A DNA stretch of 64,000 nucleotides, from contig JAIQFE010000010.1 of the NCBI GenBank assembly GCA_020073445.1, positions 88,740-152,739 of the forward strand. Reading direction: 5' to 3'. This document shows, piece after piece, positions 14,742 to 19,892 of this stretch. The position numbers and the translations under genes were made by a program. The notes under the pieces are model-generated. The model was not told the origin of the DNA, searched no databases, and was given only the letters and a program-made list of their open reading frames with translations. Numbering within the stretch: the first letter of the stretch is position 1; every line of letters begins with the position of its first letter. This DNA is from Terriglobia bacterium (GTDB taxonomy: Bacteria; Acidobacteriota; Terriglobia; Bryobacterales; Bryobacteraceae).

Positions 14742-15476
14742 TTATTGAACTGGGTATCCGCGAATCAGCTTCAGTTCCCGATCCCAGCGCGTCTTGAAGA
14801 AGAAATTCTTGGCGAGATCGATGAAGTGATCGGAGCTGTAACCCACCAGGTCCGCGGTGGGCGCGTCGTAGGACCAGAAGATCAGCAGGGGCTTGCCGAT
14901 GATGTTCTCGCGCGGCACAAAGCCCCAATAGCGGCTGTCGAGCGAGTTATCGCGGTTATCGCCCATGGCGAAATAGCTGTCGGGCGGGACCACCAGCTCG
15001 CCGTTCTGCACATGCTCGGCGAGCATCTGTTTTGCGCGGTCATAAACGGGACCATCCGGCTCTGTCGGGAAATTATCGCGATACGGATCCGGGCTGGGGA
15101 AAATATGCTGCGCGTACGGCTCGGTGAGCGGCTTACCGTTCAAATAGACCACCTTGTTGACGAGGTGAATGTGGTCGCCCGGGACGCCCATTACTCGCTT
15201 CACGTAATTCTGCGAGATGTCCATCGGGTAACGGAACACGATGATATCGCCGCGCTTGGGCTCCGTGTACGGCAGTATGTAGCGGGAAATTGAGCCGGGC
15301 GGGGCATAGGACAGCTTGTCTACCAAGAGGTGATCTCCCACCATCACGGTGGTGTCCATGGAGGGCGTGGGCACGATGAAAGCTTGCACCAACGTCGTGG
15401 TGCCGAACAGCAGAATCAGGATGTTCAGAGTCCACTCGTGGAAAAAGTTCCGGACGGAGTCGGCGTATCGGGTCAT
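14742..15476 (-). CDS. lepB: Signal peptidase I.
   Basis: 244 aa. Catalytic Ser box ..VPTPSMDTTVMVGDHLLVDK.., Lys box ..KRGDIIVFRYP.. and ..YVKRVMGVPGDHIHL.. Confidence 0.85.
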   Translation of the reverse strand: MTRYADSVRNFFHEWTLNILILLFGTTTLVQAFIVPTPSMDTTVMVGDHLLVDKLSYAPPGSISRYILPYTEPKRGDIIVFRYPMDISQNYVKRVMGVPGDHIHLVNKVVYLNGKPLTEPYAQHIFPSPDPYRDNFPTEPDGPVYDRAKQMLAEHVQNGELVVPPDSYFAMGDNRDNSLDSRYWGFVPRENIIGKPLLIFWSYDAPTADLVGYSSDHFIDLAKNFFFKTRWDRELKLIRGYPVQ

Positions 15477-15482
15477 GGGATC

Positions 15483-16442
15483 CTACTTGATCGGATAGCC
15501 GTGGATCAGCATGAAGCTGCGGCGCCAACGGGTCTTAGTGAAGATATGCTCCGCCAGGTCGACAATATGATCCAGGCTGATGGAGGAAGTATTGAGCTGA
15601 TCCGTGGGCGCGTCGTAGGACCAGTAAATGACCAACGGCTTGCCGATGATGTTCTCGCGCGGAACGAATCCCCAGTAGCGGCTGTCGAGCGACGAATCGC
15701 GGTTATCGCCCATCGCGAAATAGGAATTGGGCGGAACCACAACTTCCCCGTTGACGACGTGATTCAGCAGCATGTCGGTCGCGCGGCGGTCCACGGAAAC
15801 GTTCGGCTCACCCGGGAAATTATCGCGATAAGAATCGATGTAGTCCGACTTGTGATACGTGTACGGCTCATCCAGGCGAACGCCATTCAGGTACACCTGC
15901 TTGTTGATGACGCGGATGCGGTCGCCGGGAACGCCGATGCAGCGCTTGACGAAAGTCTGGTTGATCTCCACCGGATAGCGGAAGACGATGATGTCGCCGC
16001 GCTTCACATCGGTATACGGCAGGAGATACTTGCTCACCGGACCATAGGGAGCGAACGCCAGCTTGTCGACCAGAAGATGATCGCCGATTAGCAGCGTATC
16101 TTCCATGGATCCCGTCGGAATCACATACGCCTGGACCAGGGTCGTGGTCAGGAACAGCAGCAGCAGGATGGTGATGGTCCATTCGGCGATGGTGCTGCGC
16201 GGGCGCTCATGGTTCGGATCGTCTGGAGCAACGACCGGAGCAGCAGGTACCGCTTCTTCGGTGGCGACGGCGCCGTTAAGGCCCGGCGACTCGGCCGGTT
16301 GCAACTGAGGGACCTCGGAGACAGTACCCGAACTCAAGGGCGGGGAGGGGTCCGTGGGATCTTGGGGGGTCACTACTTCTATCTTACCGGATAGCCGGGA
16401 AAGCCCCAATTCGAGGCGAAGCGGGCGGTAGAATACCAGCAT
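15483..16442 (-). CDS. lepB: Signal peptidase I paralog with a longer N-terminal cytoplasmic extension. The start is uncertain; the track ORF extends to 16661.
   Basis: The C-terminal about 250 aa parallel the adjacent lepB (..IPTGSMEDTLLIGDHLLVDK.., ..KRGDIIVFRYP.., ..FVKRCIGVPGDRIRV..). I placed the start at the ATG at 16442..16440 (MLVFYRPL...). It overlaps the divergent ATG of the 16441 gene by 2 nt, so the true start could be elsewhere. Confidence 0.7.
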   Translation of the reverse strand: MLVFYRPLRLELGLSRLSGKIEVVTPQDPTDPSPPLSSGTVSEVPQLQPAESPGLNGAVATEEAVPAAPVVAPDDPNHERPRSTIAEWTITILLLLFLTTTLVQAYVIPTGSMEDTLLIGDHLLVDKLAFAPYGPVSKYLLPYTDVKRGDIIVFRYPVEINQTFVKRCIGVPGDRIRVINKQVYLNGVRLDEPYTYHKSDYIDSYRDNFPGEPNVSVDRRATDMLLNHVVNGEVVVPPNSYFAMGDNRDSSLDSRYWGFVPRENIIGKPLVIYWSYDAPTDQLNTSSISLDHIVDLAEHIFTKTRWRRSFMLIHGYPIK

Positions 16443-17355
16443 GTTACGTCTCACTCTCTTTGGTGTCCTCGCGCTGGGAAGCGCGTATGGGGCTTCGTGC
16501 GATCGGGCGTGTTTGAAGACCACGCTGGACCAGTATCTGACCGCCGTGGTGCAGCACAAGCCGGCGTCCGCGCCACTATCCGTCGGGTTCCGGCAGACCG
16601 AAAATGCGATGGTGCGGAGGCTGGGCACGGGCCTATGGGAAAGCGCAAAAGGTCTGGGCAAGCTCCAGCTCAGATTTTTCGATCCGGAGAGCGGGCAGGC
16701 AGGCTATTTCGGAACACTGGAAGAGGCGACCGGCCCCGCCATCGTGACGCTGCGGATGAAGGTCGAGGACCGCAAAATCTCCGAGGCTGAATGGGTACTG
16801 GCGAGGAAGGGCGATCCGGGCTTGGGGCCCCTTGGTGGTGGACAGGCAACAGCAGCCTACAACGATGTCCCTAATCTGCTGGCACACGCACCGGGCGAGC
16901 GCGTTGCTCCGAAAGCCGGGCGCGTTTCCCGCTCGGAGTTGATCGCCATCACCAACAGCTATTGGGACGGGCTGTCGGCGCATGACGGAAAGCTCATTCT
17001 GGCGCACCCCGGCTGCACGCGACTCGAGAACGGGACGCTGACGACGCAACGGTCGCTTCCGGCGGGCGGCGAGACGGACTGCACATCGGAAGGAGCCATG
17101 GCGAATATTTTCGCGGTGACGGCCCGGCGCTATCCTATCGTCGATGAAGAGGCCGGAGTGGTGCTTAGCCTGGTGCTCTTTGAGCGCAAGCCAGGCATCG
17201 CGATGCGCCGCAATCTTCTGGCCGAGTGGTTCTTCATCGAACAGGGCAAGATTCGCTCGATCTACGCGTCGATGTACTATCCAGATGCGGAAGCGATGGC
17301 GCCGAACTGGCCGCCCTATGACGGCAACTGGCCGATTTTGCCGGCGCCTAAATAG
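16441..17355 (+). CDS. Hypothetical secreted protein.
   Basis: 304 aa. Signal peptide MLRLTLFGVLALGSAYGASC. Protein-like composition, no family recognised. Its 3' end overlaps the convergent NMO gene by about 40 nt. Confidence 0.5.
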   Translation: MLRLTLFGVLALGSAYGASCDRACLKTTLDQYLTAVVQHKPASAPLSVGFRQTENAMVRRLGTGLWESAKGLGKLQLRFFDPESGQAGYFGTLEEATGPAIVTLRMKVEDRKISEAEWVLARKGDPGLGPLGGGQATAAYNDVPNLLAHAPGERVAPKAGRVSRSELIAITNSYWDGLSAHDGKLILAHPGCTRLENGTLTTQRSLPAGGETDCTSEGAMANIFAVTARRYPIVDEEAGVVLSLVLFERKPGIAMRRNLLAEWFFIEQGKIRSIYASMYYPDAEAMAPNWPPYDGNWPILPAPK

Positions 17356-18437
17356 GCAGCGGCGTCGTCCCAGATCTGTTGGACCAGATCGGCGGCTGGG
17401 ATCGGTCGTGCCAGCGCGGCGGATTGACCTGCCCACACTTGCATGCGATGGTGGTCGCCGGCGGCGGCACCGGCTTCTTTCATCGCGGCGGTCAAGCCTC
17501 GCTGGACCGGATACGGTGCGGGAAGCGGAGCATCGTGCGATGCAGCCGCTCGTACATAATTGGTCGCGATCGCGCGGCCCAGGCGTCCGGTAAAAGCTCT
17601 GGTGAGTGTGGTGCCTTCGGGTTCGAGATCGACGAGCGCGTTTGCCCACGCGGGATGGGTCTGGGCTTCCGGACACCGTAGAAAGGCCGTCCCGAGCATC
17701 GCCGTACTGGCGCCCAGAGTCAAAGCGGCGGCCACGCCCCGGCCGTCGCCAATCCCGCCGGTCGCGATGATCGGGAGGTCGATCACATCGGCAAGACGGG
17801 GGACCAGTGCGAACAAACCCACGCCTTGGCGCTCGGCGGCCGCAGGGTCGGCTGGGTAAAAGAACGATCCTCGATGGCCACCGGCTTCATAACCCTGGGC
17901 GATGATCGCATCCGCACCCGCATCGCGCGCGAGTTTTGCCTCGTGGATCGTGGTGGCGGTTGCGAACCACGCGATACGACGGTCCTTTAGCCGTGTCACA
18001 AAGGACGCGGGGAACACGCCCATGATGGAAGACACGGCTGTGGGCGCGACCTCCAGCAACGTCTCGCACTGCGCATCGAAGTCAGGCGGAACCGTGTCAC
18101 CGGCAGACGCCGGCACCGTTGGACCCCACGACTCGAGAAATTTCCTGATTCGTTCCTCGGTGGCAGGATCCCGGATTGGCTTGGGATCTGGAATCCACAG
18201 GTTTATCTGGAAGGGACCGCTGCTGCTGGATCGGAATTCCTGTACCTACGAGCGGATTCCCGCGGGTGGTGTGAGCAGGGCGCCGGTCGCACCCATTCCC
18301 CCGGTGTTCGCCACGGCGATGGAGAGGCTCGCAGGAGAGGCACCTGCCATGGGAGCAACCAGTATGGGGACCTTGAGGCCGTATGTTTCGCAGAATGAGT
18401 TGGCGCGATCGAGTGGGAGCGATCTCTTGATCGTCAT
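17316..18437 (-). pseudogene. Nitronate monooxygenase (2-nitropropane dioxygenase family) interrupted by a single in-frame TAG at 18248..18246.
   Basis: Track ORFs 18246..18437 (MTIKRSL...VPILVAPMAGASPASLSIAVANTGGMGATG...) and 17316..18116 are in the same frame. My manual translation across the gap gives ...PAGIRS*VQEFRSSSSGPFQINLWIPDPKPIRDPATEERIRKFLESWGPTVPASAGD... This contains the NMO PFgvNl-type motif (GPFQINLW) and continues into ..IIAQGYEAGGHRG.. The only interruption is one amber codon. Confidence 0.65.
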
Positions 18438-18518
18438 GCTCTCAATATAACCGCGGAATTACGTCTGAACCTTTGGGTGGTGACCGCTCCATCACCGTCG
18501 CGGCTCGGTACAGGGGAG

Positions 18519-19892
18519 CTATTCCGGCGGCTCGTCCGGCAGATCGTCGATGCGATTTTCGAAGCGAGTATATTGCCCCAAAAACCGCAGCGGCACTGTC
18601 CCGATCGGACCGTTACGTTGCTTAGCGATGATCAGGTCGGCCAGCCCCTTCAAGCTAAGGTCGTCCCTCTTGTAAATTTCCTCGCGGTGGATGAAGCCGA
18701 CCAGGTCGGCGTCCTGCTCAATCGATCCCGAGTCGCGGAGATCGCTCAACATCGGCTTGTGATCGCCCGGCCGTTGCTCGGAGGCGCGGCTCAACTGCGA
18801 CAAAACTAAGAAGGGCACTTCCAGGTCCTTGGCCATCAGCTTCAGGCCGCGCGAAATGGCCGATACTTCCTGGTTGCGGTTCTCGATCCGGCCCATGCTG
18901 CTCATCAACTGGAGATAGTCGATGATCACCAGCGCCAGGCCATGCGTGTTCTTCAGGCGCCGCAGCTTGGAGTGGACGTCCATCAGGTTGACGCCCGCCG
19001 AATCGTCCATAAACAGCGGCGATTCGGTAATCTGCGCCAACGTGAAATGCAGCTTTCGGCGCTCCTCTTCGTTGAGGTAGCCCGCTCGAAACTTGTGCTG
19101 GTCGACGCGCGCGCCCGCGCACAGCAAGCGCGTCAGCAAACTCGCCGACGACATTTCGAGCGAGAAGATCGCCACCGGCTTCTGCATCTGCGGATGCGTC
19201 GCCACGTGCTGCGCGATGTTGAGTGCCAAAGCCGTCTTGCCCATGGATGGCCGAGCCGCCAGGATCACCAGCTCACCTGCGTGGAGGCCGCCGGTCATCT
19301 CATCGAACTTCGCAAATCCGGTACTGAGGCCCCGCACGCGCTGGCTGGGATCGAGAAAGGCGTTGGCGCCGCCCGGGAAGCTCTCGACGATGCTGGCAGG
19401 CGAAGATAGTTGCTCGCTCGCCGATGCCTCACCCAGCTTCAGCAGCGATTCTTCCGCCGACGCCAGGATCTTGTCCGGCTGCTCTTCACCGATCAGGCAG
19501 CGATCAATAATCCTCTGCGAGCTGAAGATCAGCTTGCGCAGCATCGCCTTATCCTTGACGATGCGGACGTAGCTGTCGAGGTTGGTGATCTCCGGCAGGC
19601 CGTCGTCGAGCGAGACTAGGTACGCCAGGCCGTCCACCGATTCGAGCTGGCCCTGCTTCATCAGCTCTTCGGCGAGGGTGACGCGGTCGATGCGCTCGCC
19701 GCGCCCGTACAGATCCCGCATGCGGCCGTAGATGCGGCGGTGCTTCTCCAGGCTGAAGTCTTCGGGTGATAAGGAACCCGCGACCTGGAGGTATACTGCG
19801 TCGTTGAGCAGGATCGAGCCGAGAACCAGCCGCTCGGTGTCTACGCTTGCGGGCAGACCTTTCTCAAATGTCAGATCCGCGGTTGCCATCAT
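18519..19892 (-). CDS. dnaB: Replicative DNA helicase.
   Basis: 457 aa. DnaB N-terminal domain (..ERLVLGSILLNDAV..), Walker A ..ILAARPSMGKTALALNIA.., and ..LVIIDYLQLM.. Confidence 0.9.
   Translation of the reverse strand: MMATADLTFEKGLPASVDTERLVLGSILLNDAVYLQVAGSLSPEDFSLEKHRRIYGRMRDLYGRGERIDRVTLAEELMKQGQLESVDGLAYLVSLDDGLPEITNLDSYVRIVKDKAMLRKLIFSSQRIIDRCLIGEEQPDKILASAEESLLKLGEASASEQLSSPASIVESFPGGANAFLDPSQRVRGLSTGFAKFDEMTGGLHAGELVILAARPSMGKTALALNIAQHVATHPQMQKPVAIFSLEMSSASLLTRLLCAGARVDQHKFRAGYLNEEERRKLHFTLAQITESPLFMDDSAGVNLMDVHSKLRRLKNTHGLALVIIDYLQLMSSMGRIENRNQEVSAISRGLKLMAKDLEVPFLVLSQLSRASEQRPGDHKPMLSDLRDSGSIEQDADLVGFIHREEIYKRDDLSLKGLADLIIAKQRNGPIGTVPLRFLGQYTRFENRIDDLPDEPPE

What the first reader, a model, noticed from the sequence alone, without database searches (positions are those of the whole stretch)
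17316..18437. Nitronate monooxygenase gene interrupted by a single in-frame amber codon (not a frameshift)
The two track ORFs 18246..18437 and 17316..18116 are in the same frame. My translation across the 130-nt gap is protein-like throughout and contains the conserved NMO PFgvNl-type motif: ...PAGIRS-TAG-VQEFRSSSSGPFQINLWIPDPKPIRDPATEERIRKFLESWGPTVPASAGD... The 374-codon gene is therefore intact apart from one TAG at 18248..18246. Possible explanations are a very recent nonsense mutation (an incipient pseudogene), a sequencing or assembly error, or, least likely, stop-codon readthrough.
Basis: seen in the sequence. Interest (0 to 1): 0.5.

Follow-up and report, generated by a model that had tools for sequence, protein, structure and literature searches.

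The report
Recent nonsense mutation in NMO-family gene
An uncultured Bryobacteraceae bacterium carries one G-to-A change that turns a conserved tryptophan codon into a stop early in a flavin oxidoreductase gene; the change is real and found across its population, but it is an ordinary, very recent gene knockout.

Summary
On the minus strand, 18437..17316 is one 374-codon frame of an NMO-family (PF03060) gene, broken only by TAG at 18248..18246.

- **Which residue is hit:** the TAG replaces a tryptophan. 119 of 120 closest proteins have W there, and 77 of 77 GTDB genomes that cover the site have TGG. The sister lineage reads TCA-TGG-GTC.
- **Not an assembly error:** eight contigs from eight other assemblies, made by two pipelines, carry the identical gene with the TAG. 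No intact allele of this lineage was found.
- **Not a code change:** the same gene ends in TAG exactly where relatives end in TAA (...QLPS*). dnaB next door also ends in TAG.
- **Not conserved recoding:** no other lineage has TAG at this site.
- **No other decay:** the gene has 2 deviations at 171 conserved columns, against a mean of 3.2 for intact homologs. dN/dS against the sister is 0.09, with no excess of nonsynonymous changes on this branch.

The best reading is a recent TGG-to-TAG (W64stop) mutation that dominates this population. It leaves a 63-residue stub without the catalytic histidine and most of the barrel. Low-level readthrough cannot be excluded from 64 kb. This is an ordinary finding of low interest.

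The parts
17316..18437 (-). Complete reading frame of the NMO-family (PF03060) flavin oxidoreductase gene: 374 codons including one internal TAG and the terminal TAG
   Evidence: PF03060, E 1e-69, residues 21-356. One search found homologs at 75-90% identity that are 355-373 aa long and uninterrupted.
18246..18248 (-). Premature amber codon, W64stop (TGG to TAG; on the plus strand CCA to CTA)
   Evidence: One search shows the sequence. W is present in 119 of 120 homologs and TGG in 77 of 77 GTDB loci. The sister lineage L083/L091 has TCA TGG GTC. The TAG is present in 8 further assemblies.
18249..18437 (-). The only part still expected to be translated: a 63-residue N-terminal stub (ATG at 18437), holding the first barrel strand and the APMAG motif
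   Evidence: Alignment to 4Q4K places the conserved Asn (N79), the catalytic His of EAGGH (H188) and the rest of the barrel downstream of the stop.
17319..18245 (-). 309 intact codons downstream of the stop, now untranslated (inferred) but with no further lesions
   Evidence: No second stop or frameshift. There are 2 deviations at 171 conserved columns against a mean of 3.2 in intact homologs. dN/dS is 0.09, with branch counts of 40 synonymous and 16 nonsynonymous against 45 and 22 in the sister.
17316..18116 (-). The 266-aa ORF from GTG 18116 that gene callers report. It is most likely an artefact of taking the first start codon after the stop, not a real product
   Evidence: It is called as a 266-aa NMO fragment in 8 assemblies. 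It would lack residues 1-107, which include the first two barrel strands (alignment; inference).
17316..17318 (-). Terminal TAG stop of the same gene, used as an internal control for the genetic code
   Evidence: the window reads ...CAG TTG CCG TCA TAG, while L091, L001 and L002 read ...CAG TTG CCG TCA TAA at the same place (QLPS*).
18519..19892 (-). Context: dnaB, 81 nt upstream on the same strand, also ending in TAG. The dnaB-NMO order is conserved in the sister lineage
16513..17355 (+). Context: convergent DUF8021 gene overlapping the NMO 3' end by 40 nt. NMO is therefore the last gene of its co-directional run, and the stop has no downstream gene to affect

Best explanation
A single G:C to A:T transition changed codon 64 of an NMO-family flavin oxidoreductase gene from TGG (Trp) to TAG (stop) in one lineage of an uncultured Bryobacteraceae bacterium. 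The allele is real and is the only one seen in that lineage's population. Translation should end after 63 residues, giving a stub without most of the FMN-binding barrel and the catalytic histidine, so the gene is inactivated. Everything downstream is still intact because the mutation is too recent for further decay. What is shown: the mutation, its polarity, its presence in many assemblies, and normal use of TAG as a stop. What is inferred: loss of function and absence of a useful product.
For: - **Position and polarity:** TAG aligns to W in 119 of 120 homologs and to TGG in 77 of 77 GTDB loci across several phyla. The sister lineage, whose DnaB protein is identical with 82 synonymous differences, has TGG.
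- **Reality of the allele:** seven contigs from seven assemblies or runs hold the identical 1122-nt gene with TAG, and an eighth is identical from nt 78. They come from two pipelines (MEGAHIT k141 and Logan). Sampling through the neighbouring genes, which does not depend on the stop, gave only TAG carriers wherever the site was reached.
- **TAG is a stop here:** the same gene ends in TAG where relatives have TAA, dnaB ends in TAG, and 28 of 74 coding-like ORFs end in TAG.
- **Recency:** 2 deviations at 171 columns that are at least 95% conserved, against a mean of 3.2. dN/dS is 0.09. Polarised counts are 40 synonymous and 16 nonsynonymous on this branch against 45 and 22 on the sister. From these counts I estimate that less than about 10% of the branch can have been neutral.
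- **Severity:** H188 of EAGGH, N79 and most of the barrel lie after the stop.
Against: - No reads, transcripts or peptides were available, so loss of the full-length protein is inferred and not shown.
- The absence of decay fits a very recent knockout, but it would also fit a gene still translated by readthrough.
- Only 64 kb of the genome was seen, so a suppressor tRNA elsewhere cannot be excluded (none in the window).
- The eight assemblies may not be independent. Six ENA accessions fall within a span of 61 numbers, and no sample metadata could be retrieved.
Confidence: 0.9

Rival explanations
1. Sequencing or assembly error: the genome really has TGG, and the TAG is an artefact of this assembly.
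For: A single-base substitution is the smallest possible error. No reads could be inspected.
Against: Eight other contigs from eight assemblies or runs, made by two assembly pipelines, carry the same TAG in an otherwise identical gene. No TGG version of this lineage exists among 5.8 billion protein clusters, where the best hit is 90% identical. None was found in the JGI metagenome scan that allowed either base.
Confidence: 0.02
2. The gene is still functional because the TAG is read through by a natural amber suppressor tRNA, near-cognate decoding or programmed readthrough, giving some full-length enzyme.
For: The downstream 309 codons show no decay. A second amber variant (E190stop in a signal peptidase paralog) occurs in one population sample 3.4 kb away. 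Only 64 kb of the genome was searched for tRNAs.
Against: - The TAG is not conserved in any relative: 77 of 77 have TGG, and a degenerate TAG-only pattern found nothing in JGI metagenomes.
- TAG is a common genuine stop here, including on dnaB and on this gene itself. An efficient suppressor would extend those proteins.
- No other gene in the window is split by an in-frame stop.
- The lack of decay is explained just as well by recency.
Confidence: 0.04
3. The gene now works as two polypeptides, or as a re-initiated 266-aa C-terminal fragment starting at GTG 18116.
For: Gene callers report a 266-aa NMO fragment. Split barrel proteins can sometimes reassemble (general knowledge).
Against: The two ORFs would leave residues 65-107 unmade, including the conserved PFQINLW strand with N79. 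No ortholog among 80 genomes or 120 proteins is split here. The GTG is simply the first start codon after the stop.
Confidence: 0.02
4. TAG is reassigned to an amino acid (for example Trp or pyrrolysine) in this organism.
For: None beyond the single in-frame TAG.
Against: The NMO gene ends in TAG at exactly the position where three relatives have TAA. dnaB ends in TAG where the sister's identical protein also ends. TAG closes 28 of 74 coding-like ORFs. There are no other in-frame TAGs in genes of the window.
Confidence: 0.01

Closest known systems
Intact orthologs in Bryobacteraceae and other Acidobacteriota metagenome-assembled genomes (for example P0001/L091 at 90% aa identity, and P0008/L001 from DASYSG010000087 and L002 from CAVROL010000001 at 84-85%)
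   Same: Same length and domain, and the same C-terminus ...GQLPS. Two further features were checked only in the sister-lineage contigs: position directly downstream of dnaB (L083, L091) and the same convergent DUF8021 neighbour with a 40-nt overlap (L091).
   Different: All have TGG (Trp) at codon 64 where the window has TAG. The window also has a 4-residue insertion (FYPA) after GGHRGSF, shared only with the intact P0014.
Pseudomonas aeruginosa PA4202, class I nitronate monooxygenase (PDB 4Q4K/4QIS)
   Same: It is the best solved relative (E 2e-52 over residues 13-358). The APM motif, the Asn of the second strand, the catalytic His of EAGGH and one Tyr align. The positions are those named in PMC11510023 and bioRxiv 10.64898/2026.09.13.751228.
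   Different: The relationship is distant. The Lys307-equivalent position aligns to Ala, and codon 64 aligns to Ala in PA4202, so the Trp is specific to this subfamily. Activity on nitronates is unproven for this subfamily, and family annotation alone does not fix the substrate.
Ordinary young bacterial pseudogenes made by a single nonsense mutation
   Same: There is one premature stop at a conserved sense position and no other lesion. The change is a G:C to A:T transition, which from my own knowledge is the commonest class of spontaneous mutation in bacteria.
   Different: Nothing of note. The allele is seen in every sampled contig of its lineage rather than as a rare variant.

Membership tests
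Pfam NMO (PF03060) flavin oxidoreductase family | Profile score above the curated gathering threshold over the whole domain | tested here: met
   235.9 bits against a cut-off of 28, E 1e-69, residues 21-356 matching profile positions 10-329 of 331, in one stretch across the stop.
Class I nitronate monooxygenase (PA4202 type) | Conserved active-site positions (Met of APM, Asn of the second strand, catalytic His, Tyr, Lys) within four motifs | tested here: inconclusive
   In the phmmer alignment to 4Q4K, M30, N79, H188 and one Tyr align, but the Lys307 equivalent is Ala. The four motifs themselves were not scored.
Class I nitronate monooxygenase (PA4202 type) | [quoted passage not shown] | not testable with these tools
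   This needs an enzyme assay. stresses that annotation in this family does not establish the substrate (PA1024 is a counter-example).
Enoyl-ACP reductase FabK (TIGR03151) | Equivalog model score above its cut-off | tested here: not met
   129.9 bits against a cut-off of 453.1.
Nonsense-mutation pseudogene | In-frame stop at a position that is a sense codon in orthologs | tested here: met
   W in 119 of 120 proteins, TGG in 77 of 77 genomes, TGG in the sister lineage.
Nonsense-mutation pseudogene | The stop is present in the organism's DNA and is not an artefact | tested here: met
   The same TAG in 8 further assemblies from two pipelines. Reads were not inspected.
Nonsense-mutation pseudogene | The codon is read as a stop in this organism | tested here: met
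   The terminal TAG of the same gene sits where relatives have TAA, and dnaB ends in TAG. This is indirect evidence from sequence only.
Nonsense-mutation pseudogene | No full-length protein is made | not testable with these tools
   This needs proteomics or a reporter assay.
Programmed stop-codon readthrough or recoding | The in-frame stop is conserved among relatives | tested here: not met
   No relative has it: 77 of 77 have TGG, and the TAG-only degenerate pattern gave 0 hits in JGI metagenomes.
Programmed stop-codon readthrough or recoding | Dedicated decoding machinery (suppressor tRNA, pyl genes) | tested here: inconclusive
   There is no tRNA in the 64-kb window. The rest of the genome was not available.

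The most novel reading that the evidence does not exclude
The amber codon is tolerated because this bacterium has some amber-suppressing activity, such as a natural suppressor tRNA or high near-cognate readthrough. The enzyme would then still be made at a low level. That would also explain a second amber variant in a neighbouring gene in one population sample.
Probability: 0.03. Interest if true: 0.5.

Novelty: already known. Interest (0 to 1): 0.08.

Why it matters
It matters little beyond annotation. The locus should be annotated as one NMO-family pseudogene (W64stop), not as a 266-aa "nitronate monooxygenase" as gene callers currently report it in at least eight public assemblies. It is a clean example of a very young inactivating allele that dominates a wild population of an uncultured soil-type acidobacterium. 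That could serve as a strain marker, or as one data point on how dispensable this widespread but functionally unresolved oxidoreductase subfamily is.

Tried and rejected
- **Source genome:** a search of GTDB species representatives did not find it. The best hit was 85% aa identical, so the organism is placed only as Bryobacteraceae-like from the names of its neighbours.
- **JGI metagenome scans:** both returned nothing. One used a near-exact pattern allowing TAG or TGG, and the other a degenerate TAG-only pattern. They give no intact allele and no second TAG lineage. The collection may simply not hold this lineage, because all hits came from ENA and Logan.
- **Screen for other split genes:** my first composition screen missed the NMO site itself because local GC3 there is only 0.62-0.73. 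After relaxing it the site was recovered. All other candidates were ordinary gene junctions or antisense shadow frames. The screen is heuristic.
- **Stops inside GTDB homologs:** the four apparent cases were alignments running past the true ends of shorter proteins.
- **The 4-residue insertion after GGHRGSF:** I considered it as a sign of decay and rejected that, because the intact homolog P0014 has a similar insertion.
- **Promoter and terminator scan around the gene:** nothing above chance.
- **Not attempted:** structure prediction, which was not needed for the verdict, and sample metadata for the ENA and SRA accessions, which could not be looked up.

Full report
**1. The observation**

On the minus strand the sequence reads ...GGA ATC CGC TCG TAG GTA CAG GAA TTC..., with TAG at 18248..18246. 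Translating 18500..17316 in one frame gives a start at ATG 18437, then 63 sense codons, the TAG, 309 more sense codons and a terminal TAG at 17318..17316. The stretch between them is 129 nt and has no stop.

The joined 373-residue product matches Pfam NMO (PF03060) in a single stretch covering residues 21-356 (E 1e-69, 235.9 bits against a cut-off of 28). The FabK equivalog model is far below its cut-off (129.9 against 453.1).

**2. What the TAG replaces**

A search of 5.8 billion protein clusters returned thousands of homologs. The best 120 are 75-90% identical, 319-521 aa long (most 350-375), uninterrupted, and where named come from Bryobacteraceae, Bryobacterales or Acidobacteriota MAGs. 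In their alignment the TAG column holds W in 119 and G in 1.

Protein databases could hide split genes, so I repeated the survey on DNA. Of 80 GTDB loci encoding a relative, 77 cover the site and all 77 have TGG. None of the 80 has an internal stop; four apparent cases were alignments running past shorter proteins' true ends. TGG to TAG is one G-to-A transition.

**3. Is the TAG real?**

- Looking up the window's DnaB protein by exact sequence found three metagenome contigs. Two match the window at 100% over the 2.7-2.8 kb compared around the gene (99.2-99.99% over their full overlap) and have the TAG.
- The third, L083, is a sister lineage about 90% identical in DNA. Its DnaB protein is identical despite 82 nucleotide differences, all synonymous (10 at first and 72 at third codon positions). 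It reads TCA TGG GTC at the site.
- Looking up the 266-aa fragment found eight contigs from eight assemblies or runs: ERZ27248000, ERZ27247943, ERZ27247996, ERZ27247955, ERZ27247946, ERZ27247939, SRR15677227 and SRR29366202. All read TCG TAG GTA. Seven contain the identical 1122-nt gene, and the eighth is identical from nt 78.
- That look-up favours TAG carriers, so I also sampled through the convergent neighbour gene. Six contigs were found; four reach the site and all four have the truncated call.
- No intact allele of this lineage appears anywhere. The best protein hit is 90% identical, the members of that cluster are also 90%, and a JGI metagenome scan allowing TAG or TGG found nothing.

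An assembly error is therefore excluded for practical purposes. One caveat remains: six ENA accessions are numerically close and may come from one study, and I could not retrieve sample metadata. Independence is shown only at the level of libraries and of two assembly pipelines.

**4. Is TAG a stop in this organism?**

- The gene's own terminal codon is TAG, at exactly the place where L091, L001 and L002 have TAA after the same ...QLPS.
- dnaB, 81 nt upstream, ends in TAG at the end of a protein identical to the sister's.
- 28 of 74 coding-like ORFs in the window end in TAG.
- There is no tRNA gene in the window.
- A composition-based screen for other genes split by an in-frame stop recovered only the NMO site, plus ordinary gene junctions and antisense shadow frames.
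- A degenerate pattern demanding TAG in the G-I-R-S-*-V-[QE]-E-F context found nothing in JGI metagenomes.

Reassignment and conserved programmed recoding are not supported.

**5. Age of the mutation**

Apart from the stop, the gene looks like a working one.

| Measure | Window gene | Comparison |
|---|---|---|
| Deviations at 171 columns that are at least 95% conserved | 2 | mean 3.2, range 0-11, in intact homologs |
| dN/dS against sister L091 | 0.09 (dS 0.62) | – |
| Polarised changes on the branch, with L001 and L002 as outgroups | 40 synonymous, 16 nonsynonymous | 45 and 22 on the sister branch |

Neutral evolution would give about 2.8 nonsynonymous changes per synonymous one (810 against 291 sites).

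A 4-residue insertion (FYPA) right after the catalytic GGHRGSF is nearly unique. It also occurs as AYPG in the intact homolog P0014, so it is not a sign of decay. Within the sampled population the gene has no variation at all, so no within-population selection test is possible.

**6. Consequence (inferred)**

The closest solved structure is P. aeruginosa PA4202, a class I nitronate monooxygenase (4Q4K/4QIS, E 2e-52). By that alignment the stub of 63 residues keeps only the first strand and the APM motif. N79 of the PFQINLW strand, H188 of EAGGH and the rest of the barrel lie after the stop.

The 266-aa ORF from GTG 18116 is simply the first start codon after the stop and would lack residues 1-107. 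Together the two ORFs would leave residues 65-107 unmade. A functional split enzyme is therefore unlikely.

The gene is the last in its co-directional run (peptidyl-prolyl isomerase, dnaB, NMO) and is followed by a convergent gene overlapping it by 40 nt. No polar effect on other genes is expected.

**7. Family and function**

Membership of PF03060 is met. Class I status is only partly supported. The Met, Asn, His and Tyr positions listed in PMC11510023 and in bioRxiv 10.64898/2026.09.13.751228 align, but the Lys307 equivalent aligns to Ala. The bioRxiv paper also warns that annotation in this family does not settle the substrate, since PA1024 is an NADH:quinone reductase. "Nitronate monooxygenase" is therefore a family label here and not a shown activity. 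Trp64 is specific to this subfamily, because PA4202 has Ala at that position.

**8. Verdict**

This is a real, very recent TGG-to-TAG nonsense mutation (W64stop) that dominates one natural lineage of an uncultured Bryobacteraceae-like bacterium and most probably inactivates the gene. This kind of event is well known, so interest is low. The only residual open point is whether low-level readthrough still gives some enzyme, which sequence from 64 kb cannot decide.

Noticed in passing
window 14907..14909 (minus strand), inside the second S26 signal-peptidase gene 14742..15476; L081 (ERZ27248000): The only difference between the window and the 11.4-kb contig L081 is G to T at 14909. It turns GAG (E190, in the conserved GFVPRENIIG box) into TAG and shortens the called product from 244 to 189 aa. 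This is a second amber nonsense variant in the same population, seen in one sample only; L085 and L095 are intact.
   Followed up: partly
window 16005..16143 against L082 (ERZ27247943): All 31 mismatches between L082 and the window fall in a 139-nt stretch, and most are spaced three bases apart (third codon positions of the first S26 peptidase gene). The remaining 3.8 kb is identical. This looks like a recombination tract or a strain-chimeric contig end.
   Followed up: no
L086 (ERZ27247996) beyond the point matching window 16202: This contig matches the window through NMO and DUF8021 but then diverges. It carries a 405-aa gene on the opposite strand where the window has the S26 peptidases. 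The sister lineage L091 has a patatin gene at the corresponding place. This suggests structural variation next to the locus.
   Followed up: no
window 18519..19892 (dnaB) against L083: The 457-aa DnaB protein is 100% identical between the window and a sister lineage despite 82 nucleotide differences (10 at first, 0 at second and 72 at third codon positions). That is unusually strict purifying selection over a dS of this size.
   Followed up: partly
window 17850..17861 (minus strand), NMO residues 193-196: There is a 4-residue insertion FYPA immediately after the catalytic GGHRGSF motif. It is absent from 118 of the 120 aligned homologs and present in similar form (AYPG) only in P0014.
   Followed up: partly
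L091 1874..2789 (sister lineage, JGI 3300005329): The DUF8021 gene that is one 280-aa ORF in the window is called as two overlapping pieces (85 and 235 aa) in the sister-lineage contig. This suggests a frameshift or an assembly error there.
   Followed up: no
window 17316..17355: The convergent NMO and DUF8021 genes overlap by 40 nt at their 3' ends. The same overlap is present in the sister lineage L091.
   Followed up: no
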